A stretch of DNA of 64,000 nt from positions 1 through 64,000 of IMG/VR virus record IMGVR_UViG_3300033149_004284; one strand, given 5' to 3'. This document shows positions 48,326 through 64,000 of the stretch, in pieces; the stretch's first letter is position 1, and every line of letters begins with the position of its first letter. The position numbers were made by a program, and so were the translations under genes. The stretch comes from a virus. The notes beneath the pieces are model-generated. The model worked only from the letters and a program-made list of their open reading frames with translations. It was not told the origin of the DNA and searched no databases.

Positions 48326-48375
48326 TAACTTAGCCCCACTAGAACCTAGACCCACTAGAGAATGTTTGATAACTT
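48301..48375. repeat. Imperfect 31-bp direct repeat at the terL break
   Basis: CCTRGACCCACT...GAATGTTTGATAACTT at 48301 and 48345. Confidence 0.8.
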
Positions 48376-48387
48376 TGAGGAGGGAAA

Positions 48388-50408: not shown

Positions 50409-50480
50409 TTGTTGCGAATAGACTGATGGCGCAGGGGGCTCTGCTAAGTTGTGATAAGCTGGTCTAAGGAGATATCCATT

Positions 50481-51911
50481 ATGCCGATTTTAGGGCGAAT
50501 TGCAAAGAGACGACTGGTTGAGGCAGCGGTTCCTGTTGACGATACGGCTTCCGATACCTCTCGATGGCGCCGATTGACCGAGAAGGCCCCCAGGAACCTT
50601 TCTGACTACGACCACAAGCGAATGTTAGATATCGCCTTGTATCTCTATCGCTTCAATCCATTAGCCCATCGAGGCGTTGAGATCATGCGAGATTTCGTAG
50701 TGGGCAGTGGCATTCGTATTGAGGCCAAGGACAAATCCATCCAGTCAGTCATAGATAGGTTCTGGAACAATCCCGTTCATAAGATGGATCGCCTGCTGGC
50801 CAGGATAGCCTTCGAGCTCAGTCTCTATGGGGAATTCATATCTCCCGCACTGGTAAACAGGCATAACGGGGATGTCGAGCTGAGTTATATTTCCCCCCTC
50901 CAGGTCAAGGATGTCACTCTCAATCGAGGAAACCTTCTCCTGTTTGATTCAGTCGAGATCATGCCCACTGACATCTCTACCGAATCATCGAAGCTCAAGG
51001 TCATCAACCTAGAGACAGATGTTGAGGCCCACCTCGATCCTGAGGACCCAAACTCGCCCTCCACCTATGGCTATCGAACTGGAGACTGTTTCTACTTCTC
51101 GGTGAACCGAGTAGGGGATGCCAGCCGTGGCCTGAGCGATCTCCTGGCTGTTGCCGATTTCGTAGACAGCCTCGACCAACTTATCTTCAATTCATTGGAA
51201 CGCATGACCCACGAGACAGGCTGGCTCTGGGATATCGAGATGCAGGGGGCCTCAAATGAGCAATGCCAGCAGAAAGTCGCGGAGTTAGAGGCCGCTCCTC
51301 CCCGACCGGGCTCCTTCCTAGTCCACAACGAATGGGTCAAGTGGAACCCCATGAAGATCGGTCTGGAAGCCGAGAACGTCACTGACGAGTCTCTTCTCAT
51401 TCGGAACTATGCCCTGGGTGGCATGGGAGTTCCCGTTCACTTCTTCAGTGAACCGCAAGGAGCAGGTCGTGCTGTCGCTGAGTCCATGGCTGCTCCAGCC
51501 TATCAATCTCTGGAGTCTCGCCAGTCTGAAGTTGAGGGCTTTGTTCGGGAGATTCTGGACTTCGTCATAGACCAGAAACTCGTTCGGAAGATGCTAGACA
51601 GCAACTTGGATCGAAGCTATGATGTGATCATGCCAAAGATTTCCCTCCGCAATCTCCAGCGTACAGGAGGGGCCATGAACAGGACGGCGCAGGCTCTCAA
51701 GACCGCCCAAGACGAAGGTTGGATCGATAGCGAGCAAGGAAAGAAAGTCTTTGTGGCCATGCTGGAGCAACTTGGGCTGGGTGTAGACCTCACTCCTAGC
51801 CAAGAGTTGCCAGGTGTCGCTTCTAGCCAAAGGCTACCGTCTGATGTAGGTTTTAGCCAGGCAGATGTAGGTGTCGCTTCTAGCCAGGAACTGCCCAAGG
51901 AGCTGCGCTGA
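50481..51911 (+). CDS. Portal protein
   Basis: LYRFNPLAHR.VEI..DFVVG.G, ELSLYGE, RGLSDL, G.GVP.HF; position after terL. Confidence 0.85.
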   Translation: MPILGRIAKRRLVEAAVPVDDTASDTSRWRRLTEKAPRNLSDYDHKRMLDIALYLYRFNPLAHRGVEIMRDFVVGSGIRIEAKDKSIQSVIDRFWNNPVHKMDRLLARIAFELSLYGEFISPALVNRHNGDVELSYISPLQVKDVTLNRGNLLLFDSVEIMPTDISTESSKLKVINLETDVEAHLDPEDPNSPSTYGYRTGDCFYFSVNRVGDASRGLSDLLAVADFVDSLDQLIFNSLERMTHETGWLWDIEMQGASNEQCQQKVAELEAAPPRPGSFLVHNEWVKWNPMKIGLEAENVTDESLLIRNYALGGMGVPVHFFSEPQGAGRAVAESMAAPAYQSLESRQSEVEGFVREILDFVIDQKLVRKMLDSNLDRSYDVIMPKISLRNLQRTGGAMNRTAQALKTAQDEGWIDSEQGKKVFVAMLEQLGLGVDLTPSQELPGVASSQRLPSDVGFSQADVGVASSQELPKELR

Positions 51912-53389
51912 TGCAAATTGGTCTTTTGCTTAGCTCCAAACACCATGCTGAGATGTTAGCATCTGGTAACAAGACCATGCTCATCAGAGCGAGGCGTTTC
52001 TACCGCTATGTCCGCATACCAGTCTACCTGCTGGCTGATCAGAAGTGTTATGCCAAGATGGTTCTTGGGTCTCCCCAAAAAATAGACCTGAGTGGGTTTA
52101 GAGCATTGCGGAGTCAACACAGAGTAACTGAAAAGGAAAGGGAGCAACAGTGGCCTGACGAACTAGACTTCTACAGCTATAAAGTCCAGGTTCTCGAAAC
52201 TTACGATCCGCCTAAGAAGGTTAAGTTCCCTCCCACCTCTCAGGCTTGGGTACGCCATTGGGAATGGTTAGACCGCCCTCCCAAGGAGCTCCATCTTGAG
52301 AAGGTGGCTGACCTAGAACACTATCATCCGTCCAAGATTCCTGACACAGCACGCGGCAGTGCTATCCTCAGGGACGACGCTCGGCTACTCTTGGCCTACT
52401 GGTCGTCAAAACGGTCAGGCAAGGATGTCAAATATACCTACGACCTCTTGGAGCAGAAGTACACAGCCATCCTCCGTGAACTCGTTCGCAGGAGAGCAGC
52501 TCAGTTCAGTCCTCAGAACTATAAGCCTCATGCTAGAGATCTATTTGACAGAGCTGCGCGAACCCTCCAGTTGGAAGGTATTACTGTCCCACTCAGAAAG
52601 AGCTCGCATCTGAAAGGACTCACAGCCCTCCAGAATATGACGGATAAGGAACTCCTGGCTCACCATGACCACTTGCATCAAATGTATGCTGAGGGCAAAG
52701 TGACTAAGGAGAGCATCGTCAATGCTCATATCTTTGCAGTCCAGGCAATGAGACATAGGGGCCTATCTCACAAGATCGAGGATGACCTTGACAGGGAGCT
52801 CCAGGGATCTGCTGCATCACGCCTCGTCCCCTTCGTCATCATAGACTCAATGGTTTGTCAAACTGGCTCTTCTGTCTACGACATCAGGCCCCCTCACGAC
52901 TGCGACTTAGTGATACGCAGCGATGAGGAAGACTCCAAGATGACCGCAGCTATCCTTAAGGCCGTTAACCTCCCTCCATCAACCATCCACCGTATTTATG
53001 AACCCAGAGGCCCCTCCTTTGACTATGTGGCCCTCCTGGATTATGTAGCAGTGCCAGTAGCCTGGAAAGGTACCTGGACGAAGAAGAGCATCCGCCCCGA
53101 GGACATCCCCGAACACTCTTGGGCTATCTATCGGCAGTTGCCTCCTGCCGTCTTAGTCCACGACCCCTTCGTCACTCAAAGCAACAATACTTTCTACGTC
53201 CGAGATGCTCGCCGCAACACTGGCATTGAGATCAAGCTCACCAGGCTGTTAGCGGCTAACCTCTCCTTCCGATGGCGCGGGGAGGACGAAGCCATGGCAG
53301 GAACGCCGCTCTTTAAGTCTTTCCTGATTCCACATATACCTCTGAGGAGGGCCAAAGTCGATGAGCCTTTCTTCCGAAGATACTACTGA
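51911..53389 (+). CDS. Multidomain head-module protein: ASCH-like N-terminus plus Pol-beta-type nucleotidyltransferase-like motif
   Basis: HAEMLASGNKTMLIR; QTGSSVY....HDCDLVIR (GS..DxD). Confidence 0.55.
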   Translation: MQIGLLLSSKHHAEMLASGNKTMLIRARRFYRYVRIPVYLLADQKCYAKMVLGSPQKIDLSGFRALRSQHRVTEKEREQQWPDELDFYSYKVQVLETYDPPKKVKFPPTSQAWVRHWEWLDRPPKELHLEKVADLEHYHPSKIPDTARGSAILRDDARLLLAYWSSKRSGKDVKYTYDLLEQKYTAILRELVRRRAAQFSPQNYKPHARDLFDRAARTLQLEGITVPLRKSSHLKGLTALQNMTDKELLAHHDHLHQMYAEGKVTKESIVNAHIFAVQAMRHRGLSHKIEDDLDRELQGSAASRLVPFVIIDSMVCQTGSSVYDIRPPHDCDLVIRSDEEDSKMTAAILKAVNLPPSTIHRIYEPRGPSFDYVALLDYVAVPVAWKGTWTKKSIRPEDIPEHSWAIYRQLPPAVLVHDPFVTQSNNTFYVRDARRNTGIEIKLTRLLAANLSFRWRGEDEAMAGTPLFKSFLIPHIPLRRAKVDEPFFRRYY

Positions 53390-54473
53390 GATTCGTGGTC
53401 TCCTGTATCGAGATAGGCAGACTAAGGTGGCATTAAGGTTTCTCAAAAGGATAAATGTATCCCTAGAAGCCATTAGGCGAAACCTCGCAAGAGCAGAGGA
53501 GGCCCTTGCGGATGAGCCTCTATCTAGCAATGTGAGACTTCTAGCCGGCAAGTTTCTGCTAGCGGAGGAAGACATCCCTCTGGAGGATTTGGGTATTCTG
53601 ACAAAGACTCCAAATCTAGCCAGCATCATCATTCTGAACTACAATACTCTCAAGATCACCTCTGACTGTATCAAAAGCGTTCTAGCCTTGACTGAATACC
53701 CTGCGGAGATGATAGTAGTTGATAACGGCAGCACGGATGGCAGTGTGGCCTGGCTCAAGAAACAGAATTACCTAACTTTGATATCTAACAAGAATAACCG
53801 TGGCTGGACTGCCGCAAACAATCAGGGCATCAGAGTCTCCAAAGGGGCCTACTGCCTGTTACTTAACAGCGATACCATTGTGAGGACAAGGGGCTGGCTC
53901 AAAGCCATGATTCGCCTCGCTCAGCCCCCTGACGTGGCGACGGTCGGGGCCAAGCTTCTTTACCAAGATGGTACCATTCAGCATATAGGGGGCAGCATCC
54001 ACGACGTCAATCCCTTCCATCCCTTTGACGGAGCGCCTGCCGACATTCCCGAATCACTTAAAGTCAGAGAAGTCCCTTTCAACACGGGGGCCTGTCTCCT
54101 TATCAAGAAATCCGTCATCGAGCGGGTGGGCTTACTTGACGAGAAATATGTGTTCGGTTATGGTGATGTGGACTATGGCTTGAGGTGTCTTGAGGCAGGA
54201 TTTAGGAATCTCTACTGTCCATCGTCTATCCTAACTCATCTCTGGGCTTACACTCAGCGAAAAACAGGCAAGTGGATTCCATCTGAGAGCTTTGCCAGGT
54301 ACAAACAGAAGTGGACTGACAAGACGCCCGCTCTCTCTAAAAAGGTTGACATGGATTTCAGGTGGCCTGATTCTGCACAGTATATCAGAAGGACTGGTCC
54401 GGGCAGTCATATAGCAACTATTCGCAAGAAGGAGAGCGCTATGACCTGGGGGGCATTAAATGAAAACCAATGA
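53361..54473 (+). CDS. Glycosyltransferase family 2
   Basis: SIIILNYN, VVDNGSTDGS, LLNSD, TGACLLI..GLLDE..DVDY. Confidence 0.9.
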   Translation: MSLSSEDTTEIRGLLYRDRQTKVALRFLKRINVSLEAIRRNLARAEEALADEPLSSNVRLLAGKFLLAEEDIPLEDLGILTKTPNLASIIILNYNTLKITSDCIKSVLALTEYPAEMIVVDNGSTDGSVAWLKKQNYLTLISNKNNRGWTAANNQGIRVSKGAYCLLLNSDTIVRTRGWLKAMIRLAQPPDVATVGAKLLYQDGTIQHIGGSIHDVNPFHPFDGAPADIPESLKVREVPFNTGACLLIKKSVIERVGLLDEKYVFGYGDVDYGLRCLEAGFRNLYCPSSILTHLWAYTQRKTGKWIPSESFARYKQKWTDKTPALSKKVDMDFRWPDSAQYIRRTGPGSHIATIRKKESAMTWGALNENQ

Positions 54474-55311
54474 GTTTGAGCCTAAAGTCTTTGTCAAGAA
54501 CGCAAAGGAATCTGGGCAGCAGGTATCTCTAACCATGGTCACCTTTAATCGGTGGAATCTCACTCAGCAGAGTCTCTCTTCCATTTTCGAGCACACTCAT
54601 CTGCCATACATTCTGACTGTTGTCGATAACGGGAGCTGGGACGAGACGAGGGAAAACCTACAGGAACTCAGGCGGTCTGGTAAGATTAACAGATTGATTC
54701 TTCTCCCCGAGAACCGAGGCATTGACATGGGGAAGAACTTCGGCCTGCGAGCTACCCAGGGCCAGGCTAGCTGGTACTGCTGTATCGACAACGATATCAG
54801 AGTCAGTCCCTACTGGCTCAGCTACCTCTGCTATACATCTACTCTCCCTCGCCTTGGCATAATCGGCTGCAATGTTCAGGGATTTGGCACTCCTGGAGGC
54901 CCGAGCTGGTTTACACCCACGCACTGGAAAACTGTGAAAGGAGTTGTCCTAGACAACTGCCCTAATCCAGGTGGAATCTATGTCATCAGTGCAACTACAT
55001 TCGAGAAGCTAGGCTTCTTCGTTGAGAGGGGCCTCTACGGTCTAGGGGACAGCCAATACTACTCACGGGAGTTTCAACATGGCCTCAGAAGCGTCTATGT
55101 GAGAAATGTCGATTGCAGAGAGATACCTGATGAGGACTTTGTGATGGCAGACGGTACGTCGTATAGGACTTTCAAGGCGACTTCTCACAACTCTATGCGT
55201 CAGAAGGTCAGAGAAATGGCATCTCAAGGCATTGATATCCACCCAAAGCATTACGAGACTAGAGTAACGGCCCAAGAAGTTGAGAAGTATACCTGGACGC
55301 CAGAATCATGA
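54460..55311 (+). CDS. Glycosyltransferase family 2
   Basis: MVTFNR, VVDNGSWDET, ENRGI..KN.G, IDND. Confidence 0.85.
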   Translation: MKTNEFEPKVFVKNAKESGQQVSLTMVTFNRWNLTQQSLSSIFEHTHLPYILTVVDNGSWDETRENLQELRRSGKINRLILLPENRGIDMGKNFGLRATQGQASWYCCIDNDIRVSPYWLSYLCYTSTLPRLGIIGCNVQGFGTPGGPSWFTPTHWKTVKGVVLDNCPNPGGIYVISATTFEKLGFFVERGLYGLGDSQYYSREFQHGLRSVYVRNVDCREIPDEDFVMADGTSYRTFKATSHNSMRQKVREMASQGIDIHPKHYETRVTAQEVEKYTWTPES

Positions 55312-55337
55312 CCTTAGATACTTAGGGGTCCCCAACT

Positions 55338-55814
55338 ATGATTTTAGATGCAGGATCAGGCATGGCATCGAACCCAAGAGCCAACATACTCATGGACAAA
55401 TATCTTCAAGGAGACAGTACCTCTCGTATAACGGGCACTCTTATGATTCGCAAAGGACAGACTATGATTTGTGGTGACCTTGAGGCCATGCCATTTCTGG
55501 ATAAGTCCTTCGACATTGTTATTTGCTCTCAGACGCTCGAACATGTTGATAATCCTGAGAAAGCCTGTGCTGAGTTGGTGCGGGTAGGAAGGAGTGGTTT
55601 CATAACTGCGCCAAACGAGACAGTAGAAAGGCGTCGATATGAGCGTCGCGAGAAGCTCTATCACAAGTGGCTTATCAAGCAACGGGGCACTCACCTCGAC
55701 TTCTATCTCAGAAGTCTCGTTCCAAGCCTCCCGATGATGGAGCATCCTAGCCAGGGCGTGGATATGGCTTGGAAAGGGAGCTTCACTTGGTCAGTGTTCA
55801 GAGAATCGCCATGA
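55338..55814 (+). CDS. Class I SAM methyltransferase (type 11)
   Basis: ILDAGSG, MPFLDKSFD, LEHV. Confidence 0.85.
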   Translation: MILDAGSGMASNPRANILMDKYLQGDSTSRITGTLMIRKGQTMICGDLEAMPFLDKSFDIVICSQTLEHVDNPEKACAELVRVGRSGFITAPNETVERRRYERREKLYHKWLIKQRGTHLDFYLRSLVPSLPMMEHPSQGVDMAWKGSFTWSVFRESP

Positions 55815-56803
55815 CAAGACTCCCCAGAGTCCTATTCGTTAGCATAGCTCCGTCTCTCCACACGGAGTTCTGGGCTGCTGGCTTTATGAAGGCCCTTCGC
55901 AAAGTTGCCGTTCCACTGGCTTTCCCTTTCAGGAAAATGGCTCATGACCACGGGGCAGCCTACATGAACGAGACGCTAGTGGAAACTGCTCTGGAGTTTC
56001 GTCCTGACCTGATCTTTATTAGGAAGGGGGAAAGCATTCTCGGCTCTAGCATTAAGACGCTCAGGGATTCCCTGCCTGCTTATATCATCTACTATTGTGG
56101 GGACTTCCGTCTCAATCCAGTCTCCTTCATCGTCGATATTGGACGATACGCAGATTGTACCATTTTCAACAACGAGGACGAGAAGGTTGCTGATAGATAT
56201 CAGGTTGCGGGTGTGAGACATGTGGGTCCTTGGTGGGACGGTGGAATTGACCCAGAAGTCTTTTGCCCGCAAGACGTACCCAGAGCCTGGGACCTAGCCT
56301 TCATGGGCACTAACGTCCCCTTGCCTCACAGGGGCTATCAGGTACGTCGCCAACTACTGGAGGCTATCGTCGAGAGTAACTACTCTCTTCACATCTTCGG
56401 TGGGGCTGAAGGCTGGAAGTACCTCCACACGAATACCCACCCGTTCGTTTATGGCCCTGCTTTCGCTAAGGCCTGTTCTCAATCGCGTATCACTCTGGGC
56501 GTCAATGGAGTGAACGACATGTATCTGTATGCTTCCTGGCAACGTACTTTCAAGTCAATGGCCAGTGGAGCGTTTCACCTTACTCACTATGTCCCTGGAC
56601 TGGAGACGTTCTTTGAGAACCGCAAGCATCTGGTCTGGTTCATCTCCATACCTGAGGCGATGAGTCTCATTGCTTACTATCTCACTCACGACGAGGAACG
56701 TGAAGAAATAGCCATGGCAGGCCGACAGGAGGTTCTTGCTCACTTCACTTGGGACGATGCTGTCGCAAGGCTTATGAGGATTTGGCAAAGTGACTGCTGT
56801 TGA
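55811..56803 (+). CDS. GT-B glycosyltransferase (CgeB-like)
   Basis: FRPDLIF, DLAFMGT, RTFKSMASG, YYL.H.EER..IA.AG..HFTW. Confidence 0.85.
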   Translation: MTRLPRVLFVSIAPSLHTEFWAAGFMKALRKVAVPLAFPFRKMAHDHGAAYMNETLVETALEFRPDLIFIRKGESILGSSIKTLRDSLPAYIIYYCGDFRLNPVSFIVDIGRYADCTIFNNEDEKVADRYQVAGVRHVGPWWDGGIDPEVFCPQDVPRAWDLAFMGTNVPLPHRGYQVRRQLLEAIVESNYSLHIFGGAEGWKYLHTNTHPFVYGPAFAKACSQSRITLGVNGVNDMYLYASWQRTFKSMASGAFHLTHYVPGLETFFENRKHLVWFISIPEAMSLIAYYLTHDEEREEIAMAGRQEVLAHFTWDDAVARLMRIWQSDCC

Positions 56804-57473
56804 ACAATACCGTAGGGACTTCGCCACGTACATGAGCCTTCCTGGAGCTGAGAGGTGTAGACTCCAAATGTATCCTCGTCTTGAGGATAAGACCGCATCA
56901 ACTCCCCTGGATGCCTATTACTTTCGACAAGATACCTGGGCGTTCAAGCGGATAGTAGACCTCAAGCCTAGCAGCATAGTAGATGTAGGATCGACTGCGC
57001 TCCTCGTGGGAATTCTTGCCCAGATGTTTCCTACAACGAGTATCGATATAAGGCCCATTCCAGTATCTCTTCCTGGATTAACATGTAGGCAAGGCTCGAT
57101 CACTAATCTCCCCTTCAAAGACGCCTCAGTTGAGCTCCTGAGCAGCCTATGTGTGATAGAGCATATAGGTCTAGGTCGATACGGCGACAAGCTCGATCCG
57201 CTCGGTAGCATCAAAGCCTGCAAGGAGATCTCGAGGGTGCTCAAGCCTGGTGGACATTTCATAATGAGCACTCAAGTGAGTCATACCCCTGCCCTCTGCT
57301 TCAATGCGCACCGAATCTTCACGCAGGCCCAAGTTCTGGATATGTTGCCAGCCTTCTCGGTAACGGATGAGGCGTTCTTCTTCCCTCGGCCTGGCAATGC
57401 AGAAGACATAGAGGCACTCACGGGTTTCAGGTTCTGCTTCTGGTGCGTAGACTTGGTTAAGGAGTCAGCATGA
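56790..57473 (+). CDS. DUF268-like methyltransferase
   Basis: YFRQDTWA, VDVGS, IEHIGLGRYGD.LDP, FNAHRIF. Confidence 0.85.
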   Translation: MTAVEQYRRDFATYMSLPGAERCRLQMYPRLEDKTASTPLDAYYFRQDTWAFKRIVDLKPSSIVDVGSTALLVGILAQMFPTTSIDIRPIPVSLPGLTCRQGSITNLPFKDASVELLSSLCVIEHIGLGRYGDKLDPLGSIKACKEISRVLKPGGHFIMSTQVSHTPALCFNAHRIFTQAQVLDMLPAFSVTDEAFFFPRPGNAEDIEALTGFRFCFWCVDLVKESA

Positions 57474-58273
57474 CGCTCTCGGTTGTAACTCCTAGCTACA
57501 TTAACAACCAGCAACGAGCTGATTGGGCCAGAGACTCTCTGGCTTCCCTCAGGGAAACTATCGGCGACGGCTACTTACATGTTGTGGTGCTTGACAAATC
57601 CCTTGAATGGAATATTATTGCTCAGGCAATCTATAACCAGCCTAATGTAATGCTCATGCAGCGTCCCAAGCCTCTTGGCAATACTTCAGCTTTGCTAAAG
57701 GCCGTGAAGGAATCTCGCAAGTTGGGAGCAGATCTCTGTTTTGTCCATATGGACGATAACATCTATGTCCCCGAATTCGGACCTCTTCTCAGATATGCCC
57801 AGGACGCTTTCAGCAACGATAGGGAGTTGCAAGAAGTGCTCTTTGTTGGCTACCCGATCCTTATAAAGAGGCATAGCAAACCACTTCTTGGCAATCGCAC
57901 AGGCCTAACTATCGAGGAGAATCAAGTCTCTTTCGATACCATACAGTTGCACCCTACTCGCTGTACGGATTATACTCTCTGGTGGTCTTATTTTCATGAC
58001 CGAATGGTGGACGGGCGATTTTGGGCAGTTGTCATGTGGATGGCTCTCTACCGAGCTGAGTTCTTGGAGAGTGTCCTTACACTTGCCCCTACGGGCCGGA
58101 CGCTTGGTCAGGTTGAATCTTACTACAGAAACAGAAGCAACTGGGAGAGACTATCCCATCGCTTTCCAGGAAAGCTCGGTTACATAAACATGCAGTTCGG
58201 CGGTTTGGAGATGCACCATCATAGTCAGGAATGGTGTGAGATGATCCGTTTTCCTAATACGCCTGTGAGGTGA
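57470..58273 (+). CDS. Divergent GT-A fold protein
   Basis: SVVTPSY, VVLD, HMDD. Confidence 0.5.
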   Translation: MTLSVVTPSYINNQQRADWARDSLASLRETIGDGYLHVVVLDKSLEWNIIAQAIYNQPNVMLMQRPKPLGNTSALLKAVKESRKLGADLCFVHMDDNIYVPEFGPLLRYAQDAFSNDRELQEVLFVGYPILIKRHSKPLLGNRTGLTIEENQVSFDTIQLHPTRCTDYTLWWSYFHDRMVDGRFWAVVMWMALYRAEFLESVLTLAPTGRTLGQVESYYRNRSNWERLSHRFPGKLGYINMQFGGLEMHHHSQEWCEMIRFPNTPVR

Positions 58274-58309
58274 GACATATAGGAGAAGACTTACCTGTGA
58301 GGTGAAGGA

Positions 58310-58948
58310 ATGACTTACAGAGAGAATCCAGAACTAGGTCAGGACATGGTTAAGTTTGCCTTTCATCGTTGGCAGCAAGGAGAATATCTCTTAGAGCCTC
58401 CTCAGCGTCAAATCTACGAGAATATTGCGGTCAGAGCGAAAGGCAAGACGGTCTGTGATATAGGCTCTGGAGCGGGACTGGGAACTACTATCCTAGCACA
58501 AAGGGCTCAGTCAGTTATTGGCATCGAGAAGGTTGCGTCTTCCGTCAGGTTCTCTAGGAAATGTCATCCCCTAACAAATGTGCAGTTTCTGAATGAGGAT
58601 ATAGGGAAGTGCTCTCTTTCTGACAACAGTTTCGATGTAGTGGTGGCGGTTGAGGTGATAGAGCATATCGCAAACTACCAGGCAGCACTGGATCAGATGG
58701 CTCGAATTCTGAAAGAGTCTGGAACCCTATACATCTCGTCTCCTAACAGGAATCAAGATATTAGAGGAGGAGCGTCAGGCGCAGGCCCGCCAAGGAACAA
58801 GTATCATGTTCGAGAGTGGACAGCCGAGGAGTTTCGGCATATTCTTCTCTCGCGCTTCAGTCAGGTTAGGCTTTCTGACTATACCCTTGACCCTTGCCTA
58901 GACTCCTGTACGCGAGTCTCGCCAGTTATCGCGATCTGTCGAATATGA
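58310..58948 (+). CDS. Class I SAM methyltransferase
   Basis: VCDIGSGAGLG, FDVVVAVEVIEH, SSPN..N.YHVRE. Confidence 0.9.
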   Translation: MTYRENPELGQDMVKFAFHRWQQGEYLLEPPQRQIYENIAVRAKGKTVCDIGSGAGLGTTILAQRAQSVIGIEKVASSVRFSRKCHPLTNVQFLNEDIGKCSLSDNSFDVVVAVEVIEHIANYQAALDQMARILKESGTLYISSPNRNQDIRGGASGAGPPRNKYHVREWTAEEFRHILLSRFSQVRLSDYTLDPCLDSCTRVSPVIAICRI

Positions 58949-59613
58949 GAACTCTGTGGATCGTTATTCCAGCAAAAGATGAGGCTGCTACTATTGCAGA
59001 CCTAGTTGCCGAAGCCGCCCACTACGGAACGGTGTTAGTAGTTACCAGTGGGCCTTCAGACGATACTGGCCCAAGAGCTGCCAGCGCGGGAGCCCAGGTA
59101 ATCTACAACGGCCAGAGCATTGCAGGAAAGATAGTCACTGGCTGGCAGAGAGCCCTCGACAACAATGCGACACGAGTCATAGTCATGGATGCAGGCGGAT
59201 CGCATAGGCCATCAGATATCCCCCGTCTCCTGGCAGCAGAGGCTGACATCGTAATAGGCAGTCGGTTTGTGGCTGGAGGCCAATATCATGGCAGATCGTG
59301 GCGCAGGGTATGCAGTCAAGTCATGGCTCTGCTCTGCAACCTAGCCCAACCAGGTAAACAGGTCCATGACTGGTCTAGCGGCTTCAGGTGTTATTCGGTA
59401 GAAGCAATTGGGCAGCTACTAGCCGTCCATTATAAATCTGATATGCACGCTTGGCAAATCGAGGTGCTAGGCTGGGCTAGGCGCTTGCACCTTTCAGTTG
59501 AGGAAGTCCCTATACAGTATACTGCTGGGCACTCGTCTCTCTCCTGGGATGGGGCTCTCAGGGCTCTCAATATATTGTTAGACATCTTGCTCCGCAGGTG
59601 GGTAGTCGGATGA
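58945..59613 (+). CDS. Glycosyltransferase family 2 (DPM1-like, DxD degenerate)
   Basis: IVIPAKDE, VMDAGGSH, DIVIGSRF, D.SSGFR, EVPI. Confidence 0.8.
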   Translation: MRTLWIVIPAKDEAATIADLVAEAAHYGTVLVVTSGPSDDTGPRAASAGAQVIYNGQSIAGKIVTGWQRALDNNATRVIVMDAGGSHRPSDIPRLLAAEADIVIGSRFVAGGQYHGRSWRRVCSQVMALLCNLAQPGKQVHDWSSGFRCYSVEAIGQLLAVHYKSDMHAWQIEVLGWARRLHLSVEEVPIQYTAGHSSLSWDGALRALNILLDILLRRWVVG

Positions 59614-60683
59614 TATTCTACCTTGATACATACATTACTGACGAGCCTCTCCATCCTGCGTTTGTTTGGCCAAACAGGGAGATCAGGAACTCCTGTCCCC
59701 AGTATAAGATGCCACGGAGAATAGATATCACAAAGTACACGCTTGCGAGTTATAAGATGATTCCGTGGACACATGTTGTCATCGCATACGATGTTGCTGA
59801 TAAGGATGATGAAAGCACGTTCCTGGACTTTGTGCAAGAAGTTTTCCCAGACGCAGATGTTAGTCGGCCTCGCTCCTCTAACCAGAAGACGTACAGGGCA
59901 AGAGTGGAGCAAGTTTGCAGTTTTGAGGATGACTTCATCTTTTATGCACCTAACAACGATCATCCCCTCATAGCAAGCAATCTCAATCACCTGCCCAAGT
60001 TACTCAAAAAGGCTTCAAGGTTCTCACAAAACTACCCATTTGTCTCCGTTGTCTACTCGCACTTCAGTGAGTTCGTCAACGCGCCTGTCGTTGGGAGTCC
60101 TTTCTACAGACAGTTCTCTAGCGACTCACGCATAGTAGAAGACGACGAGATTGCTACGAGCTTTGTGAGATTCAATGGCGACAACTCTTCTATCCAGATC
60201 GTCAATAGGAATCTCCTGCAACACTGGTTTTGCTCACATGATCTCGGTGATGCCAGAATCATCAGAGCAGAAGATGTTCGCAGGTTTCTTCCAACTCCTA
60301 ACCAGTTGATGATAGTGCCCAAGAAGGAGCTCTGTGCGCACTTTGACGGCTACTCGCATACAACTGGTATCACTAAGATCAGTCCTGACCAGATTCCTCC
60401 TCTATTCATTCCAACAGGGTTCTTCGACAGCTCGATTCGGATCGCCTACGGATATCCAGAATACCGAGATGGCTGGGTAAACATAAACCCTTCTGCGAGG
60501 GATTTCAGTTTCCGCGACCGAAAGACGGGCACAGATCTGAAAATTGGTCTTCAGGACATACCTCTTTTCTGGAAGAGCAGAATCGCAGAAATAGACATCA
60601 ATGTGAATGCCGACCTCGAGCGAATTAAGGAGGGCAGAGAGAAATACTTTGAGACAGTTCGTAACCCCTGGAGGAAAGCCTAG
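59610..60683 (+). CDS. Hypothetical, possible divergent glycosyltransferase
   Basis: Coupled inside the cluster; IFYAPNNDH and HFDGY motifs; no TM. Confidence 0.45.
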   Translation: MIFYLDTYITDEPLHPAFVWPNREIRNSCPQYKMPRRIDITKYTLASYKMIPWTHVVIAYDVADKDDESTFLDFVQEVFPDADVSRPRSSNQKTYRARVEQVCSFEDDFIFYAPNNDHPLIASNLNHLPKLLKKASRFSQNYPFVSVVYSHFSEFVNAPVVGSPFYRQFSSDSRIVEDDEIATSFVRFNGDNSSIQIVNRNLLQHWFCSHDLGDARIIRAEDVRRFLPTPNQLMIVPKKELCAHFDGYSHTTGITKISPDQIPPLFIPTGFFDSSIRIAYGYPEYRDGWVNINPSARDFSFRDRKTGTDLKIGLQDIPLFWKSRIAEIDINVNADLERIKEGREKYFETVRNPWRKA

Positions 60684-61258
60684 TGATCAAGTTGCATATA
60701 GGCTGTGGCCCCAGAGTGCTAAAGGGATGGATAAATATCGATCTCAAGTTCACTCCTTACCAGGCGTACCTGAAATACTACACTGACAAGTACTACCCAG
60801 AGTCCGCTAGGGGCGACAAGTCAGATTTTCTTGCACTAGATGTGTCTAGGCAGCCTTTGCCCTTTCCTGACAATTCGGTAGATGTCGTCTTCCATGAGGA
60901 CTTCCTTGAGCACCTGAACCAGCGTAGCCAAGTTCTCTTCCTAGCTGATTCTCTCCGAGTCTTGAAGCCAGACTCCATTCATCGAATTGATACGCCTAAC
61001 CTGTTAGCATCGATGCGCGATCACTCTAATTTCTCCCTTGGCTTTCAGGGTGTCTATGTCCATGAGTGGGATAAGTCCAAGCATCTCAATGTATTGACCC
61101 CTAGCTCGCTTGAAGAGATGGCTCTTATGGTTGGATATTCAACAGTAGTCTTCACAGGTAGAAACCAAAGTGCGTCGCCTCTGATTCCGCCTGAGTATCG
61201 CCCTGATCCAAGAGATCGGCCCGAGAACGGAAACATCTTTGCAGATTTGGTTGCTTAG
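60683..61258 (+). CDS. Class I SAM methyltransferase (type 11)
   Basis: KLHIGCG...GWINID, LPFPDNSVD, FLEHL, RVLKP. Confidence 0.9.
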   Translation: MIKLHIGCGPRVLKGWINIDLKFTPYQAYLKYYTDKYYPESARGDKSDFLALDVSRQPLPFPDNSVDVVFHEDFLEHLNQRSQVLFLADSLRVLKPDSIHRIDTPNLLASMRDHSNFSLGFQGVYVHEWDKSKHLNVLTPSSLEEMALMVGYSTVVFTGRNQSASPLIPPEYRPDPRDRPENGNIFADLVA

Positions 61259-61268
61259 GAGTAGCGCC

Positions 61269-62147
61269 TTGAGGATATTTGTTCTTCCTGTGTCGTCTCA
61301 GTTTCAACCTCCTCCCATGAAGATTCTCTATCCTCCTCACAACAAGCGAGACTACGGCATTGAGCAAGACTTCGCTCAGCATCTCACAGAGCCTTCTAGT
61401 GACTGGACGATCGCAGAGTCTTCTGACGTTGCTGATTGGCATTACCTTCCTATCTACTGGACACGTTACCATGTGACACATAACTATGCCAAGACTGGCC
61501 TAGAAGCACTTCAGCGTGAAGTTGCCCGAAGAATCATTGACGACAAAAGGACCTTTACAATTTGCCAGTATGATGATGGGCCTTTGGTAGACCTTGGTAG
61601 AACTGTGCAGTTTCTAGGGTCTCGCAAAGGGGAAGAAGGCATCGACGTCCCTCTTCTTTCCTATCCTCATAAGCTCCCTGCAGTTGATCCCCCTAAACAG
61701 TGGTTAGCGTCTTTTGCAGGGAGACTCCGAACGCACGAGGTTCGCGCAGACATGCAGCGTGTTCTGGGGCCTCGCCAGGACATTGACATTCAGGACACAC
61801 GCAAAACCAGTAGATTCTTTGTAGACTTGATCCTTCGGTCGTATGTTTCCCTCTGTCCCAGGGGATGGGGTGGCTCGTCTTTTAGGTTTTATGAATCTAT
61901 GCAACTGGGAGTAGTGCCCCTTCTCATTGGCAGCATAGACACCCGCCCCTTCAAACGTTTCCTGAACTGGAGTATAATGAGTCTCTATGCTCGCACGGCC
62001 GAGGAAGCAAATGTGTCCCTCGACTCCCACACTCTGACAGAATTGCTAGAGATGGGGCGATGTGCCAAGAAAGCCTGGCATCAAGATCTATCGTTTGGGC
62101 ACTGGCACAAGTATGTGTTTCAGGAATTGGAGGCTCTATGGCATTAA
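61269..62147 (+). CDS. Exostosin-like (GT47) glycosyltransferase
   Basis: ASFAG..THEVR, SLCPRGWG.SSFRFYESMQLG.VP. Confidence 0.8.
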   Translation: MRIFVLPVSSQFQPPPMKILYPPHNKRDYGIEQDFAQHLTEPSSDWTIAESSDVADWHYLPIYWTRYHVTHNYAKTGLEALQREVARRIIDDKRTFTICQYDDGPLVDLGRTVQFLGSRKGEEGIDVPLLSYPHKLPAVDPPKQWLASFAGRLRTHEVRADMQRVLGPRQDIDIQDTRKTSRFFVDLILRSYVSLCPRGWGGSSFRFYESMQLGVVPLLIGSIDTRPFKRFLNWSIMSLYARTAEEANVSLDSHTLTELLEMGRCAKKAWHQDLSFGHWHKYVFQELEALWH

Positions 62148-63592
62148 AGCACCATCAGCACTCTCTACAGGCCGAGGCGGTATGGGGGAAAGCCTACGGC
62201 GTGTTTGATCGAATTGTTCAGTTGAGAGGTTTCAGGACTGGCGTCGAGGTTGGCGTTGCTTTTGGAGGGCACATAGAAGCACTTCTCAACATCCCCACTA
62301 TTGAGAAGGTCTATGGAGTTGATCCCTATCAGCAAACAGGAACTAGCAGCTCCTTGGGCCTCTCGCAGTCTGAGATGGATACCCTCTATCTCTTCGTTCT
62401 GAACAGACTTGCCCCGTTTGGCGATCGTTACCAGCCTGTACGAAAAAGCTCGGTAGAGGCATCGTCTATCATCCCGCAGGAGATTGATTTCGTCTACATA
62501 GACGCTGACCATTCCTACCAGGAAGTTATGGCGGATCTCTGTGCTTGGTTTCCCAAAGTACGCGAAGGCGGGATAATTGGCGGCCATGACTATTCTCATC
62601 CTGACTTGCCAGGAGTTAAGAAAGCCGTGGATAGATTCTTCAGTCGGTTTGCTCAGCGCGTTCACTCACTAGGCGAATATGTCTGGTGGATAGAGAAGAA
62701 GATGCCCAGCATCAGCTTCGTATTGCCTGCATACAACTGCGCTGAGTTCGTCGAGGAGTCTGTGAAGTCTATTCAGAAGGGGAACTTTGAAGATGGCGAC
62801 GAGCTCATCATTGTTGACGATGGCTCATCTGACAATACCCTGATGATTTTGCAGAGACTGGCCGCGTACTATCCCTCAATAAGGCTTCTCAAACACGACA
62901 GTAATAGGGGCGCATCAGCAGCCAGGAATACAGCGATAGCCAGTGCCAAGAACTCCCTACTCTTCAACCTAGACTCAGATAATATCCTAGTGCCAGGCAG
63001 CATCCCCAAACTCAAAACATATTTGATTAGCTCCAATGCTGATATAGCAGTGTTCGAGGAGACGCGTTTCTTTAGAAACGGAACTGGCCAGATAACACAC
63101 AGCTGGAAGTATGGCCCAGGTCTGTTGACTCTATCCGACTGCTTGGCTGGCCAAATAACTCCTGGGGCTAGTGGGAACTATATGTTCACTAAGGAGTCCT
63201 GGGCCAAAGCTGAAGGTTACCCTGAGTTCGCAAAGACCTATGAAACCTGGGGATTCGCCTTCAGGCAGCTAGCCACAGGCTCCAAAATGATGGCAATGCC
63301 CGACTCTTTCTATCTCCATAGGTATGGCCATTCGTCACTCTGGGTGCGAGAAGGAGGAAATCGGAACGCTTCTCGGAAAACTCTAAAGATGATTCTGCCC
63401 TTTCTTGGCCTGCTTGACTACAAGGACGTTGAATACATAATGAGCCACAAGGAGACCTGGCTTACTAACTTATCTCAGCACCCAATACGAGTCAAGGGGA
63501 GCGCTCCTGGGAATTCGGGCAGCATCAAACTCCAGAGCCCTCCACTTGACTATATGGAGCTTTTGTGTCAGAATATAGACGAGGAGACATAA
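62138..63592 (+). CDS. Methyltransferase (type 24)-GT2 fusion
   Basis: VEVGV..G, DFVYIDADHSY, GGHDY; then SFVLPAYN, VDDGSSD, ARN, LDSD. Confidence 0.9.
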   Translation: MALKHHQHSLQAEAVWGKAYGVFDRIVQLRGFRTGVEVGVAFGGHIEALLNIPTIEKVYGVDPYQQTGTSSSLGLSQSEMDTLYLFVLNRLAPFGDRYQPVRKSSVEASSIIPQEIDFVYIDADHSYQEVMADLCAWFPKVREGGIIGGHDYSHPDLPGVKKAVDRFFSRFAQRVHSLGEYVWWIEKKMPSISFVLPAYNCAEFVEESVKSIQKGNFEDGDELIIVDDGSSDNTLMILQRLAAYYPSIRLLKHDSNRGASAARNTAIASAKNSLLFNLDSDNILVPGSIPKLKTYLISSNADIAVFEETRFFRNGTGQITHSWKYGPGLLTLSDCLAGQITPGASGNYMFTKESWAKAEGYPEFAKTYETWGFAFRQLATGSKMMAMPDSFYLHRYGHSSLWVREGGNRNASRKTLKMILPFLGLLDYKDVEYIMSHKETWLTNLSQHPIRVKGSAPGNSGSIKLQSPPLDYMELLCQNIDEET

Positions 63593-64000
63593 TGATTGAC
63601 TACAAGACAACCGCTGGTTTCTCCCTGACACTTGAGGAGCGTGAGTTCCTCAAAGACTCTGCTGAGGGCTCTGGCTCCATTGTCAGTATCGAGTCTGGCC
63701 CCTGCGCTGCGCTATGGTGCTTCAGGGCAGGCGCGCCTGAGTCTTCCATCTACAGCGTGAAGGAGCAAGGATCGATCATAGATGGTGATCCAGGAGTAAC
63801 TATCCTTAGTGGCTTTTCTGACTTCCCTGGAAACTCTGTAGACCTGCTCTTCATAGATGGCTCACATGCTTTCAAGGATGTTCTACTCGACTTAGTTACT
63901 TGGCAAGATAGCATCCCGCTGAAAGGCTTAGTGGTCCTTCACGACTATGAGCACAACAATATGCCTGAAGTTAAGCTGGCTACTGAGTTCTGGCTCAAGA
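63592..64000 (+). CDS. Methyltransferase (type 24), 3' truncated by window edge
   Basis: Open frame MIDYK..DLLFIDGSH..V..D..VVLHDY. Confidence 0.8.
   Translation, partial: MIDYKTTAGFSLTLEEREFLKDSAEGSGSIVSIESGPCAALWCFRAGAPESSIYSVKEQGSIIDGDPGVTILSGFSDFPGNSVDLLFIDGSHAFKDVLLDLVTWQDSIPLKGLVVLHDYEHNNMPEVKLATEFWLK

What the first reader, a model, noticed from the sequence alone, without database searches (positions are those of the whole stretch)
53361..64000. At least 13 glycosyltransferase/methyltransferase genes inside the head operon: candidate methylated virion glycan system
Seen: directly after terL, portal and 51911 there is a tightly packed run, mostly with overlapping stop/start codons: GT2, GT2, MT, GT-B, MT, GT-A?, MT, GT2, GT?, MT, GT47, MT-GT2 fusion, MT. 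It is still open at the window edge. GTs and MTs largely alternate. No nucleotide-sugar synthases, flippase, Wzy/Wzz or obvious TM proteins appear in the visible part. Known: some actinobacteriophages glycosylate capsid/tail proteins with a few GTs, and chloroviruses build O-methylated capsid glycans using GT and MT domains; serotype-converting gtr cassettes need membrane proteins. Inference: a late-expressed cytoplasmic pathway that builds a complex O-methylated glycan on the virion, larger than the phage examples I know. DNA hypermodification or host-surface modification are alternatives.
Basis: partly seen in the sequence, partly recalled or inferred. Interest (0 to 1): 0.85.

Follow-up and report, generated by a model that had tools for sequence, protein, structure and literature searches.

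The report
Phage head-operon glycan-building gene cassette
An uncultivated 86-kb phage carries thirteen tightly coupled soluble sugar-adding and methyl-adding enzyme genes between its portal and capsid genes, plus a fourteenth beside its tail-tube gene; they most likely coat the phage's own particle with a methylated glycan, as a much larger version of something shown so far only in mycobacteriophages and algal giant viruses.

Summary
The run ends 179 nt beyond the window.

Downstream come a head-cargo polyprotein, a protease/HK97 capsid fusion, two connector-like genes, a 14th GT and the tail tube. The contig (86,287 bp) is circularly permuted relative to a 91-kb IMG/VR relative, so it is a near-complete phage genome and not a prophage edge or chimera.

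The relative has a cassette in the same slot. Seven genes are shared (47-74% aa). The 3' half is replaced by PglD-like, DegT x2, GT2 and GNAT genes. Sixty-six more distant portal relatives showed no homologue of the cassette.

The cassette has no TM segments, priming transferase, flippase, ThyA-type hydroxymethylase or nucleotide-sugar genes.

Best reading (0.6): a cytoplasmic, late-operon virion glycosylation system. It is analogous but not homologous to Corndog gp35-38. The glycan, its targets and the expression timing are all inferred.

The scan has noted GT/MT cassettes in phage head modules before (62 notes); this is among the largest. Verdict: new variant of a known kind.

The parts
47422..47450 (+). 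Promoter-like site (TTGACA-17-TAAGAT with TG) just upstream of the terminase ATPase gene; candidate start of the transcript that runs through the cassette
   Evidence: This is a consensus match only. No excess of terminator-like sites lies between here and the window end (15 found, 15.0 expected).
50451..51911 (+). Portal gene, the upstream anchor of the slot
   Evidence: 29% identical over 85% of its length to the Microcystis phage Mae-JY22 portal-position gene. 66% identical to the portal of IMGVR_UViG_3300029813_000617. Weak Phage_portal_2 hit.
51911..53389 (+). 492-aa head-module protein of unknown function; probably polyvalent-type cargo, not assigned to the glycan pathway
   Evidence: No Pfam or PHROG hit. 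Its segments recur inside 1000-2500-aa multidomain proteins. Present in all three cassette-bearing relatives.
53361..54473 (+). GT2 glycosyltransferase (370 aa, with an 85-aa N-terminal extension)
   Evidence: PF00535 E 8.8e-24, full-length domain. 74% identical in the relative.
54460..55311 (+). GT2 glycosyltransferase (283 aa)
   Evidence: PF00535 E 2.2e-17. 63% identical in the relative.
55338..55814 (+). Class I SAM methyltransferase (158 aa)
   Evidence: PF08241 E 4.2e-13. LDAGSG motif I near the N-terminus.
55769..56803 (+). GT-B glycosyltransferase (Glyco_trans_1_2); the likely true start is ATG 55811, a 4-nt overlap
   Evidence: PF13524 E 2.2e-25. Start analysis. 53% identical in the relative.
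56790..57473 (+). SAM methyltransferase (DUF268/Methyltransf_11, 227 aa)
   Evidence: PF03269 E 1.6e-12 and PF08241 E 1.6e-8. 68% identical in the relative, where it sits at a different position in the cassette.
57470..58273 (+). Probable GT-A fold glycosyltransferase (267 aa) with no Pfam hit
   Evidence: The ESM Atlas model has TM 0.72 to GT2 clusters, and the feature hits are GT2-bearing viral clusters. VVLD and HMDDN motifs are conserved with the relative. My own AF2 model was too poor to use (pLDDT 46) and hhalign was weak.
58310..58948 (+). Class I SAM methyltransferase (212 aa)
   Evidence: PF13847 E 2.3e-20. The nearest solved chains are small-molecule N- and O-methyltransferases, not DNA methylases.
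58894..59613 (+). Probable GT2 glycosyltransferase; the likely start is ATG 58945, a 4-nt overlap; no homologue detected in the relative
   Evidence: PF00535 at the cut-off (23.3 bits). phrog_841 E 4e-5. 34% identical to a GT in the MAG. No match in the relative.
59598..60683 (+). GT-A fold protein of a large uncharacterised family; the likely start is ATG 59610; it forms a unit with the next MT gene
   Evidence: 207 homologues without a Pfam domain, some about 600 aa long and fused to Methyltransf_11. AF2 pLDDT 96.3. VIA Z 10.9-9.4 to POMGNT1, B4GALNT1, GnT-I, Mimivirus R699, chlorovirus HAS, TarP and SpsA. NNDH is invariant or nearly so at residues 115-118.
60683..61258 (+). Class I SAM methyltransferase (191 aa); the split counterpart of the MT domain fused to the preceding family elsewhere
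   Evidence: PF08241 E 1.4e-7. Fused forms are P0004, P0005, P0016, P0084 and P0102. An MT also follows the distant homologue in L008.
61239..62147 (+). GT47/exostosin-like glycosyltransferase (302 aa)
   Evidence: PF03016 E 2.6e-17, 63.5 bits against a cut-off of 33.4. Weak hit to human EXT1. 52-60% identical in the relative.
62060..63592 (+). Methyltransf_24 plus GT2 fusion protein; the likely start is ATG 62138 with a Shine-Dalgarno site
   Evidence: PF13578 E 4.2e-13 and PF00535 E 7.2e-27. The GT2 part matches chondroitin and heparosan synthases, E 1.6e-18. No orthologue in the relative.
63565..64000 (+). Methyltransf_24 methyltransferase, the last gene of the cassette. It is cut by the window edge; the full ORF ends at contig position 64179 (contig coordinates equal window coordinates).

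Parts of the system that lie beyond the window, in contig coordinates:
- 64527-68558: 1343-aa ligase/Dam/XkdF-protease polyprotein, the downstream boundary of the slot.
- 68639-68667: perfect TTGACA-17-TATAAT promoter consensus.
- 68922-71600: 892-aa fusion of zinc ribbons, protease/scaffold and an HK97 capsid protein; candidate acceptor.
- 72932-74095: the 14th gene, a GT-B glycosyltransferase.
- 74092-75048: tail tube; candidate acceptor.
   Evidence: - PF13578 E 2.4e-9 on the full ORF L001:1565-2179. ORF end.
- Polyprotein: PF01068, PF02086 and PF14550.
- Promoter: L001:6639-6667, 12 of 12 matches.
- Capsid: PF25209 E 8e-36, phrog_29592 and phrog_4523.
- GT-B: phrog_7162 E 4.3e-31. It is homologous to Streptomyces phage KimJongPhill gp6, E 1.8e-23, and 62.5% identical in the relative.
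- Tail tube: PF18906 E 4.2e-21.

Best explanation
This is a phage-encoded, cytoplasmic virion-glycosylation system.

Shown: fourteen genes sit inside the head-tail morphogenesis operon of a near-complete 86-kb phage genome. Thirteen lie between the portal/492-aa gene and the head polyprotein, and one lies immediately before the tail-tube gene. Together they encode 9 glycosyltransferase domains (GT2 x4, other GT-A x2, GT-B x2, GT47-like x1) and 6 class I SAM-methyltransferase domains. All are soluble, and most are translationally coupled.

Inferred mechanism: the genes are transcribed with the terminase and portal genes late in infection. The GTs draw on host nucleotide sugars, because the phage encodes no sugar-activation genes. 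They build an oligosaccharide of up to about eight or nine residues step by step on exposed residues of virion proteins, with capsid and tail tube as the prime candidates. Interleaved methyltransferases, two of them physically or genetically paired with a GT, methylate the sugars as they are added, using host SAM. The result would be a hydrophobic, enzyme-resistant glycan coat.

The 3' half of the cassette differs between the two known relatives. This suggests that the glycan structure diversifies in the way a serotype locus does. The likely benefit is shielding or altered surface properties of the particle.
For: 1. Domain content and order.
2. Position inside the structural operon. The order is terminase, portal, 492-aa gene, cassette, head polyprotein, protease-capsid fusion, two connector-like genes, GT-B, tail tube. 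All are on one strand. Overlaps of 1-4 nt are frequent. There is no terminator excess.
3. Not a prophage edge or assembly chimera. C244 and the 91-kb relative are collinear and circularly permuted with respect to each other.
4. Both insertion sites are conserved in the relative, and shared genes diverge about as much as core genes do (47-74% against 57-72%). This indicates vertical inheritance under selection, with the 3' half swapped.
5. The relative's version adds PglD-like, two DegT and GNAT genes, which is amino-sugar chemistry typical of protein and surface glycans.
6. No TM segments and no priming transferase, flippase or polymerase domains.
7. Published precedent for the same slot. [quoted passage not shown] They are reported to modify capsid and tail tube (PMC11600133 and PMC12619734, citing Freeman 2023).
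8. The tail-tube-adjacent GT-B is homologous to a GT that lies beside an MT in the structural region of Streptomyces phage KimJongPhill.
9. Precedent for GT and MT modules building methylated capsid glycans in the cytoplasm: PBCV-1 A064R (PMC7826918).
Against: - There is no direct evidence for a glycan, its acceptor or late expression.
- No cassette protein is detectably homologous to the experimentally studied Corndog gp35-38 or Che8 gp108-110 (phmmer, E up to 1). The link is therefore by analogy.
- I found no recognisable acceptor feature. The capsid has no C-terminal extension or Ser/Thr-rich tail relative to cassette-free relatives, only two short lineage-specific loops. There is no enriched tripeptide tag.
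- No recognisable polypeptide-specific initiating transferase (GT41 NGT, GT27 or an oligosaccharyltransferase) was seen by Pfam.
- Peripheral GTs without TM segments also work on undecaprenyl-linked intermediates. Solubility alone therefore does not exclude use of host export machinery.
- Promoter-like sites occur inside the cassette, for example 57591-57618 with 11 of 12 matches, so independent expression is possible.
- The host is unknown.
Confidence: 0.6

Rival explanations
1. Host cell-surface remodelling. The soluble GTs and MTs act at the inner face of the membrane on undecaprenyl-linked or lipid A-core intermediates. They rely on the host's own priming enzyme and its Wzx or ABC exporter. 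This would alter LPS, S-layer or capsule glycans during infection or lysogeny, to block superinfection or to stop released virions re-adsorbing to debris.
For: - Most O-antigen GTs are peripheral proteins without TM helices (established knowledge).
- Terminal O-methylation is a known feature of ABC-transporter-dependent O-antigens (established knowledge).
- Large cyanomyoviruses with up to 13 GTs are interpreted this way in the literature (PMC12801897).
- GT2 domains here hit GtrB-like PHROGs weakly.
- IMG/VR classes the relative as a provirus.
Against: - The genes lie inside the head-tail operon and are translationally coupled to structural genes. They are not at a moron position with their own regulation.
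- A second GT is wedged directly in front of the tail-tube gene.
- Nothing membrane-associated is encoded: no GtrA or Wzx, no priming transferase, no ligase.
- Modifying a surface minutes before lysis would bring little benefit.
- The permutation analysis argues that both contigs are free or circular genomes, not integrated ones.
Confidence: 0.17
2. A non-virion cytoplasmic product. The cassette would make a free or carrier-bound polymethylated oligosaccharide or glycoside, comparable to the mycobacterial cytoplasmic polymethylated polysaccharides. Alternatively it would glycosylate host or internal head-cargo proteins such as the neighbouring 1343-aa polyprotein.
For: - GT/MT alternation resembles the pathways for methylglucose and methylmannose polysaccharides, which are cytoplasmic (own knowledge, not tested here).
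- The cassette's immediate neighbours are cargo-type proteins: the 492-aa protein and the polyprotein.
- No acceptor motif was found on capsid or tube.
Against: - No precedent in phages.
- The extra GT at the tube gene and the head-operon position fit external structural targets better.
- No acyltransferase or carrier gene is present in this phage's cassette.
Confidence: 0.12
3. DNA hypermodification. The GTs would glycosylate modified bases in phage DNA to evade restriction, and the MTs would tailor the sugars further.
For: - Phage GTs can build multi-sugar glycans on DNA (Pyle et al. 2024, as cited in PMC12619734; not read here).
- The phage invests in DNA modification elsewhere: an N6/N4 MTase at 32434-33834 and a Dam domain in the head polyprotein.
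- One MT24 domain hits a PHROG labelled DNA methyltransferase (phrog_2675).
Against: - No ThyA-family dCMP/dUMP hydroxymethylase is present anywhere in the contig or the MAG (PF00303 search; positive in 10 of 14 control genomes).
- The genes are not with the replication genes on the minus strand but in the morphogenesis operon.
- Nine GT domains from at least four families and six small-molecule-type MTs far exceed any known DNA-sugar pathway.
- The relative's PglD, DegT and GNAT genes point to amino-sugar glycans.
Confidence: 0.04
4. Artefact. The cluster would be host DNA joined to phage DNA by misassembly or binning, or a decaying, non-functional insertion.
For: - The contig comes from a fragmented MAG of 411 contigs.
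- GC in the cassette is slightly lower, 0.49-0.50 against about 0.51.
Against: - An independent 91-kb contig from another sample and a 3.4-kb contig both have the same junction, with portal, the 492-aa gene and then a GT2.
- All 13 ORFs are intact and tightly packed.
- Shared genes are conserved at core-gene levels.
- The MAG holds only distant GT homologues, 24-44% identical.
Confidence: 0.02

Closest known systems
Cluster O mycobacteriophage (Corndog) cassette gp35-gp38: an O-methyltransferase, two glycosyltransferases and a GlcNAc-transferase (PMC4351075; function per Freeman et al. 2023, Cell Host Microbe, read only through citing papers)
   Same: [quoted passage not shown] It has the same enzyme classes, soluble GTs plus a SAM O-MT. 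The enzymes are made in infected cells but are not virion components. The reported targets, capsid and tail tube, match the two insertion sites seen here.
   Different: It has 4 genes, against 14 here, and 1 MT, against 6. phmmer (E up to 1) found no sequence homology to any of our proteins. The host is an actinobacterium, whereas here the host is unknown and the phage lineage's nearest isolate is a Microcystis phage (about 30% aa). Here the content is mosaic between relatives, and a novel GT-A family is included.
Cluster F mycobacteriophage Che8 gp108-110 (three glycosyltransferases)
   Same: These are phage-encoded soluble GTs credited with capsid and tail-tube glycosylation.
   Different: They lie at the right genome end, outside the structural operon. 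There is no MT and no detectable homology.
Chlorovirus PBCV-1 capsid glycosylation enzymes (A064R: two rhamnosyltransferase domains plus an O-2 methyltransferase; A111/114R) (PMC7826918)
   Same: This is a virus-encoded cytoplasmic pathway that builds methylated glycans on the major capsid protein from GT and MT modules. It includes GT-MT fusions like our 62060-63592 protein.
   Different: It belongs to a eukaryotic giant virus, its genes are dispersed, its N-linked glycans are of known structure, and homology was not tested here. In the ESM Atlas feature search, the top cluster for the 267-aa protein is labelled Nucleocytoviricota, which is a lead only.
Streptomyces phage KimJongPhill/Zuko gp4-gp6 (UDP-glucose dehydrogenase, methyltransferase, glycosyltransferase) upstream of the terminase genes
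   Same: gp6 is a true homologue of our tail-tube-adjacent GT-B (E 1.8e-23). It lies next to an MT in the structural region.
   Different: It has three genes and sits before the terminase. Its function is untested. It encodes a sugar-nucleotide enzyme, and ours encodes none.
Serotype-converting gtrABC cassettes and O-antigen (Wzx/Wzy or ABC) loci
   Same: They use GT2-family enzymes. Gene content varies between relatives, as in serotype loci.
   Different: Those systems need membrane components: the GtrA flippase, TM-anchored GtrB and GtrC, a priming transferase, and a flippase or polymerase. None is encoded here. Those cassettes are also lysogeny-expressed morons, not head-operon genes.

Membership tests
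Mycobacteriophage-type virion glycosylation system (Corndog/Che8; Freeman et al. 2023) | Phage-encoded soluble glycosyltransferases (with or without an O-MT) located in or next to the virion structural genes | tested here: met
   13 GT/MT ORFs lie between the portal/492-aa gene and the head polyprotein, and one GT lies before the tail tube. No TM segments.
Mycobacteriophage-type virion glycosylation system (Corndog/Che8; Freeman et al. 2023) | Sequence homology to Corndog gp35-38 or Che8 gp108-110 | tested here: not met
   phmmer of those seven proteins against all cassette proteins of this phage and its relative gave no hit at E up to 1. The relation is functional analogy, not family membership.
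Mycobacteriophage-type virion glycosylation system (Corndog/Che8; Freeman et al. 2023) | Glycans covalently attached to capsid and tail-tube subunits | not testable with these tools
   This needs virions or co-expression plus mass spectrometry. No C-terminal extension or enriched tag was seen in the sequence.
Glycosyltransferase family 2 (Pfam PF00535, GT-A fold) | Domain match above the curated cut-off | tested here: met
   53361 (84.8 bits), 54460 (64.0), 62060 (94.8) and 58894 (23.3, exactly at the cut-off of 23.3).
GT-A fold glycosyltransferase (for the 361-aa ORF 59598-60683) | Predicted structure aligns with the catalytic domain of solved GT-A enzymes | tested here: met
   AF2 pLDDT 96.3. 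VIA Z 10.9 (5ggf, rmsd 3.7 over 187 residues), 10.8, 10.5, 10.3 and so on; the top 13 rows are all GT-A transferases. Sugar nucleotidyltransferases share the fold at lower Z (8-9), so transferase activity itself remains inferred.
GT-A fold glycosyltransferase (for the 267-aa ORF 57470-58273) | Structure or profile match to GT2/GT-A | tested here: inconclusive
   The Atlas model has TM 0.72 to GT2 clusters. My own AF2 model had pLDDT 46. hhalign gave probability 9.5%, E 0.0034, but with the motifs in register.
gtrABC serotype-conversion cassette | Membrane proteins: GtrA flippase, bactoprenol-linked GtrB with TM helices, polytopic GtrC | tested here: not met
   No TM-like segment in any cassette ORF. 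Only weak GtrB-like PHROG hits, limited to the soluble GT2 domain.
Wzx/Wzy or ABC-transporter polysaccharide locus | Initiating phosphoglycosyl transferase, flippase or ABC transporter, polymerase or chain-length regulator | tested here: not met
   Pfam found none of these domains in the 13 ORFs or in 30 other ORFs of the window.
Phage DNA glycosylation (T4-like and related hypermodification) | Pathway for a hydroxymethylated pyrimidine acceptor (ThyA-family hydroxymethylase) | tested here: not met
   The PF00303 search of the whole assembly, including the contig, gave no match; it was positive in 10 of 14 control genomes.

The most novel reading that the evidence does not exclude
This phage lineage wraps its capsid and tail in a long (eight sugars or more), heavily methylated heteroglycan, effectively a phage 'capsule'. 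The glycan would be assembled entirely in the cytoplasm by 15 catalytic domains. These include a widespread, still unnamed GT-A family that works as an obligate pair with a methyltransferase. The swapped 3' half of the cassette between relatives would then be a virion serotype locus evolving under diversifying selection. That would make virion glycan diversity a general axis of phage biology outside the Actinobacteria.
Probability: 0.3. Interest if true: 0.75.

Novelty: new variant of a known kind. Interest (0 to 1): 0.5.

Why it matters
Virion glycosylation by phage-encoded enzymes has been demonstrated only for a few mycobacteriophages. There, two to four enzymes add glycans that blunt antibody recognition.

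This phage belongs to an unrelated lineage, and the MAG it was binned with looks like Candidatus Eisenbacteria. Yet it holds 9 GT and 6 MT domains in the same genomic slot. That suggests the strategy is widespread and can reach the complexity of a bacterial O-antigen locus or a giant-virus glycan.

The case offers three concrete things:
- a compact set of soluble, co-evolved GT/MT pairs for glyco-engineering;
- a first functional context for a large unannotated GT-A family (207 or more homologues, often mis-binned to CPR or DPANN genomes);
- a natural comparison of two relatives, with a shared 5' half and a swapped 3' half, for asking how virion glycans diversify.

Tried and rejected
- DTG 'sequon' lead from earlier scan notes. 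DTG occurs 8 times against 5.8 expected in all ORFs, and no tripeptide is strikingly enriched in structural proteins. The lead does not apply here.
- Acceptor signature in the capsid. The alignment with cassette-free relatives shows no C-terminal extension and no Ser/Thr-rich tail. It shows only two short lineage-specific loops, one carrying a conserved N-A-T. This is too weak to claim.
- Metagenome scan anchored on the 492-aa protein: no relatives found.
- Portal-anchored scans gave 67 metagenome and 19 genome loci. phmmer on the 67 metagenome loci found cassette homologues only in the closest one, L017. The 19 genome loci were not screened for GT/MT. This survey would miss unrelated GT families. 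Pfam on ten ORFs from the four longest portal-capsid gaps showed MuF-like, lectin-like and beta-helix proteins, not GTs or MTs.
- AF2 of the 267-aa ORF from a 2-sequence alignment gave pLDDT 46 and was not used for fold search. hhalign against a GT2 alignment was weak.
- Host link. There are no spacer-like matches between the contig and the rest of the MAG, and the MAG has only distant GT homologues. None of 40 related genomes has the portal. The MAG has no psbA. Its RpoB resembles proteins named Candidatus Eisenbacteria at 82%. The host assignment therefore rests on binning alone.
- Rfam on the window: no family matched.
- The look-up of sequencing runs: none was listed, and no RNA holder was listed.
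- Freeman et al. 2023 (PMC10527164) is not held. Its content is cited only through other papers.
- Complex prediction was not used. Enzyme-substrate pairs are poor candidates for it, and no specific binding claim is made.

Full report
**What is there.** The window is the first 64,000 bases of an 86,287-bp contig, C244. It is by far the largest contig of a fragmented 2.57-Mb, 411-contig MAG with a matching GC of 51%.

From 53361 to 64179 there are 13 consecutive plus-strand ORFs. Pfam assigns eleven of them. Running through the cassette, the order is:
- GT2, GT2, Methyltransf_11;
- GT-B (Glyco_trans_1_2), DUF268/Methyltransf_11;
- an unassigned ORF, Methyltransf_31;
- a GT2 at the cut-off, a second unassigned ORF, Methyltransf_11;
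- Exostosin GT47;
- a Methyltransf_24-GT2 fusion, Methyltransf_24.

The two unassigned ORFs are also transferase-like:
- The 267-aa ORF matches GT2 clusters in the ESM Atlas by structure (TM 0.72). It keeps the VVLD and HMDDN motifs.
- The 361-aa ORF gave a very confident AF2 model (pLDDT 96.3). Its 13 best VIA matches are all GT-A glycosyltransferases, Z 9.4-10.9, including POMGNT1, GnT-I, Mimivirus R699, chlorovirus hyaluronan synthase, TarP and SpsA.

With the most plausible start codons, many junctions overlap by 1 or 4 nt. No ORF has a TM-like hydrophobic segment.

**What surrounds it.**
- Upstream are a split terminase, a portal (29% identical to the portal-position gene of Microcystis phage Mae-JY22, the closest isolate) and a 492-aa protein. 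Segments of that protein recur inside 1000-2500-aa multidomain proteins, which marks it as polyvalent-type head cargo.
- Downstream, beyond the window, the head genes resume. In order they are:
  - a 109-aa ORF;
  - a 1343-aa polyprotein with ligase, Dam and XkdF-protease domains;
  - a 363-nt gap holding a perfect TTGACA-17-TATAAT;
  - an 892-aa fusion of zinc ribbons, protease/scaffold and an HK97 capsid protein;
  - two connector-like genes;
  - a 387-aa GT-B (phrog_7162);
  - the tail-tube gene, overlapping that GT-B by 4 nt.
- A tblastx comparison with the only close relative, IMGVR_UViG_3300029813_000617 (91,230 bp), shows the two contigs are collinear and circularly permuted relative to each other. 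Each contig's ends are contiguous in the other. Both are thus near-complete phage genomes.
- Pfam on 30 further ORFs of 150 aa or more found replication, recombination and DNA-methylase genes, but no nucleotide-sugar synthesis genes.

**Comparative evidence.**
- The relative carries a cassette in the same slot, with 16 ORFs over about 13.5 kb. Seven genes are shared at 47-74% identity, similar to the flanking core genes at 57-72%. One of them has changed position.
- Our 58894-60683 genes, our first Methyltransf_11 (55338-55814), our MT24-GT2 fusion and our last MT have no detectable counterpart there. Our Methyltransf_11 at 60683-61258 has only a distant one (31%). The relative instead has an extra GT2-GT2 fusion, a second GT-B, a PglD-like acetyltransferase, two DegT aminotransferases, another GT2 and a GNAT.
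- The tail-tube-adjacent GT-B is conserved in the relative (62.5%). tblastn found no match in Mae-JY22 to it or to any cassette GT/MT.
- A third contig, L017, shows the same junction: portal, the 492-aa gene, then a GT2.
- Across 66 more distant portal relatives from metagenomes (25-37% identity), phmmer with all cassette proteins found nothing. A further 19 loci from genome assemblies, mostly Pseudomonadota prophages at about 30% identity, were retrieved but not screened. The four longest portal-capsid gaps sampled hold MuF-like and other cargo instead.
- The cassette is therefore a lineage-specific, vertically maintained and modularly varying insertion.

**The 361-aa family.** This ORF belongs to a large family with no Pfam model: 207 hits, typically 45-70% identical. 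Many members sit on contigs labelled as CPR bacteria or DPANN archaea. Several forms of about 600 aa are fused to Methyltransf_11. That is the same arrangement as our adjacent 361-aa and MT genes. A 31%-identical homologue in a viral contig (L008) is again followed by an MT. It sits among radical-SAM, DHQ-synthase-like, GHMP-kinase and DegT genes. This gives the family a consistent glyco-tailoring context.

**Mechanism.**
- Shown: the domain content, solubility, operon position, conservation and mosaicism.
- Inferred: the genes are transcribed with the terminase and portal genes, from a promoter-like site at 47422-47450 with no terminator excess downstream. The GTs extend a glycan from host nucleotide sugars on virion proteins in the cytoplasm. 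The interleaved MTs methylate the sugars. Their nearest solved relatives are small-molecule N- and O-methyltransferases, not DNA methylases.
- Which atoms are methylated, which residues are glycosylated and which GT initiates on protein are all unknown.

**Rivals.**
- Host-surface remodelling remains possible, because peripheral GTs also act on lipid-linked intermediates. It is disfavoured by the head-operon position, by the second GT at the tube gene, and by the absence of any membrane component.
- DNA hypermodification is unlikely. No ThyA-family hydroxymethylase exists in the assembly. The genes are not with the replication module. The number and diversity of enzymes far exceed known DNA-sugar pathways.
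- A cytoplasmic non-virion product cannot be excluded.
- Misassembly is excluded by the independent contigs that share the junctions.

**Relation to known systems.**
- The nearest analogue is the cluster O mycobacteriophage cassette. [quoted passage not shown] These are expressed in infected cells but absent from virions (PMC4351075). They are reported to modify capsid and tail tube (PMC11600133 and PMC12619734, citing Freeman 2023, which I could not read).
- Corndog gp35-38 and Che8 gp108-110 show no detectable homology to any protein here. This system therefore works like the mycobacteriophage one but is not a member of it.
- Only the tube-adjacent GT-B has an actinophage homologue: Streptomyces phage KimJongPhill gp6, which lies beside an MT and a UDP-glucose dehydrogenase before the terminase genes.
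- Chlorovirus PBCV-1 A064R (GT-GT-MT) is the precedent for cytoplasmic assembly of methylated capsid glycans (PMC7826918).

**Novelty and score.**
- The scan's own notebook already holds 62 notes of GT/MT cassettes in phage head modules in at least 59 genomes, some about 10 kb long. The kind of thing is therefore neither unique nor unanticipated.
- This example stands out on four points. It has 15 catalytic domains. It has two insertion sites that match the two published target proteins. A relative with a swapped half is available for comparison. It includes a new GT-A/MT pair.
- The host is unknown. The MAG's RpoB is 82% identical to proteins named Candidatus Eisenbacteria. Nothing beyond binning links the phage to that MAG.
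- I rate it a new variant of a known kind, of moderate interest.

Noticed in passing
contig C244 64527-68558 (beyond the window; L001:2527-6558): A 1343-aa head-operon polyprotein joins an ATP-dependent DNA ligase domain, a D12-class adenine methyltransferase and a C-terminal XkdF-type prohead protease. It looks like packaged or ejected cargo. It is conserved at 64-71% in the relative, where the ORF is 1507 aa.
   Followed up: partly
contig C244 68922-71600 and 68639-68667 (L001:6922-9600, 6639-6667): The major capsid protein is the C-terminal third of an 892-aa fusion. Its N-terminus carries two zinc-ribbon pairs (CPKC...CPKC), followed by an acidic Pro/Glu-rich linker (residues 405-430). The gene is preceded by a perfect sigma-70 consensus promoter in a 363-nt gap.
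   Followed up: partly
window 51911-53389: The 492-aa protein after the portal has no Pfam or PHROG hit. Its segments (about 1-120, 125-300 and 300-492) recur separately inside 1000-2500-aa multidomain proteins (679 hits). It contains a GSS-x9-DCD stretch (residues 319-332) that resembles a nucleotidyltransferase motif. It is probably polyvalent head cargo.
   Followed up: partly
window 59598-60683 and loci L008-L016: The 361-aa GT-A protein defines a large family without a Pfam model. Members are often fused to, or followed by, a Methyltransf_11 domain. Many lie on contigs labelled CPR or DPANN. In viral contig L008 a distant member sits among B12-radical-SAM, DHQ-synthase-like, dioxygenase, TPP-enzyme, GHMP-kinase and DegT genes.
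   Followed up: partly
whole contig C244 versus IMGVR_UViG_3300029813_000617: The two contigs are circular permutations of one gene order, so both are essentially complete genomes of about 86-91 kb. IMG/VR nevertheless classes the relative as 'provirus' with 84% completeness, which looks doubtful.
   Followed up: yes
window 47465-49793: The terminase large subunit is split. One ORF is 71% identical to the relative's N-terminal terminase part, and a separate ORF has a weak Terminase_6C nuclease hit (E 0.006). A 162-aa ORF lies between them. The relative has the same split, with an unrelated insert of about 0.8 kb. An HNH-AP2 homing-endonuclease-like gene lies nearby at 44381-45121.
   Followed up: no
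window 3678-6407 and 1302-2852: A 909-aa probable tail or fibre protein carries a Hint/pretoxin-HINT domain at residues 289-402. A neighbouring 516-aa protein has an M23 peptidase domain.
   Followed up: no
G000 contig C93:5213-6754: The MAG's RpoB is 82% identical to proteins that NCBI names Candidatus Eisenbacteria. The MAG (85.5% complete) has no psbA and no ThyA. None of 40 related genomes carries this phage's portal.
   Followed up: partly
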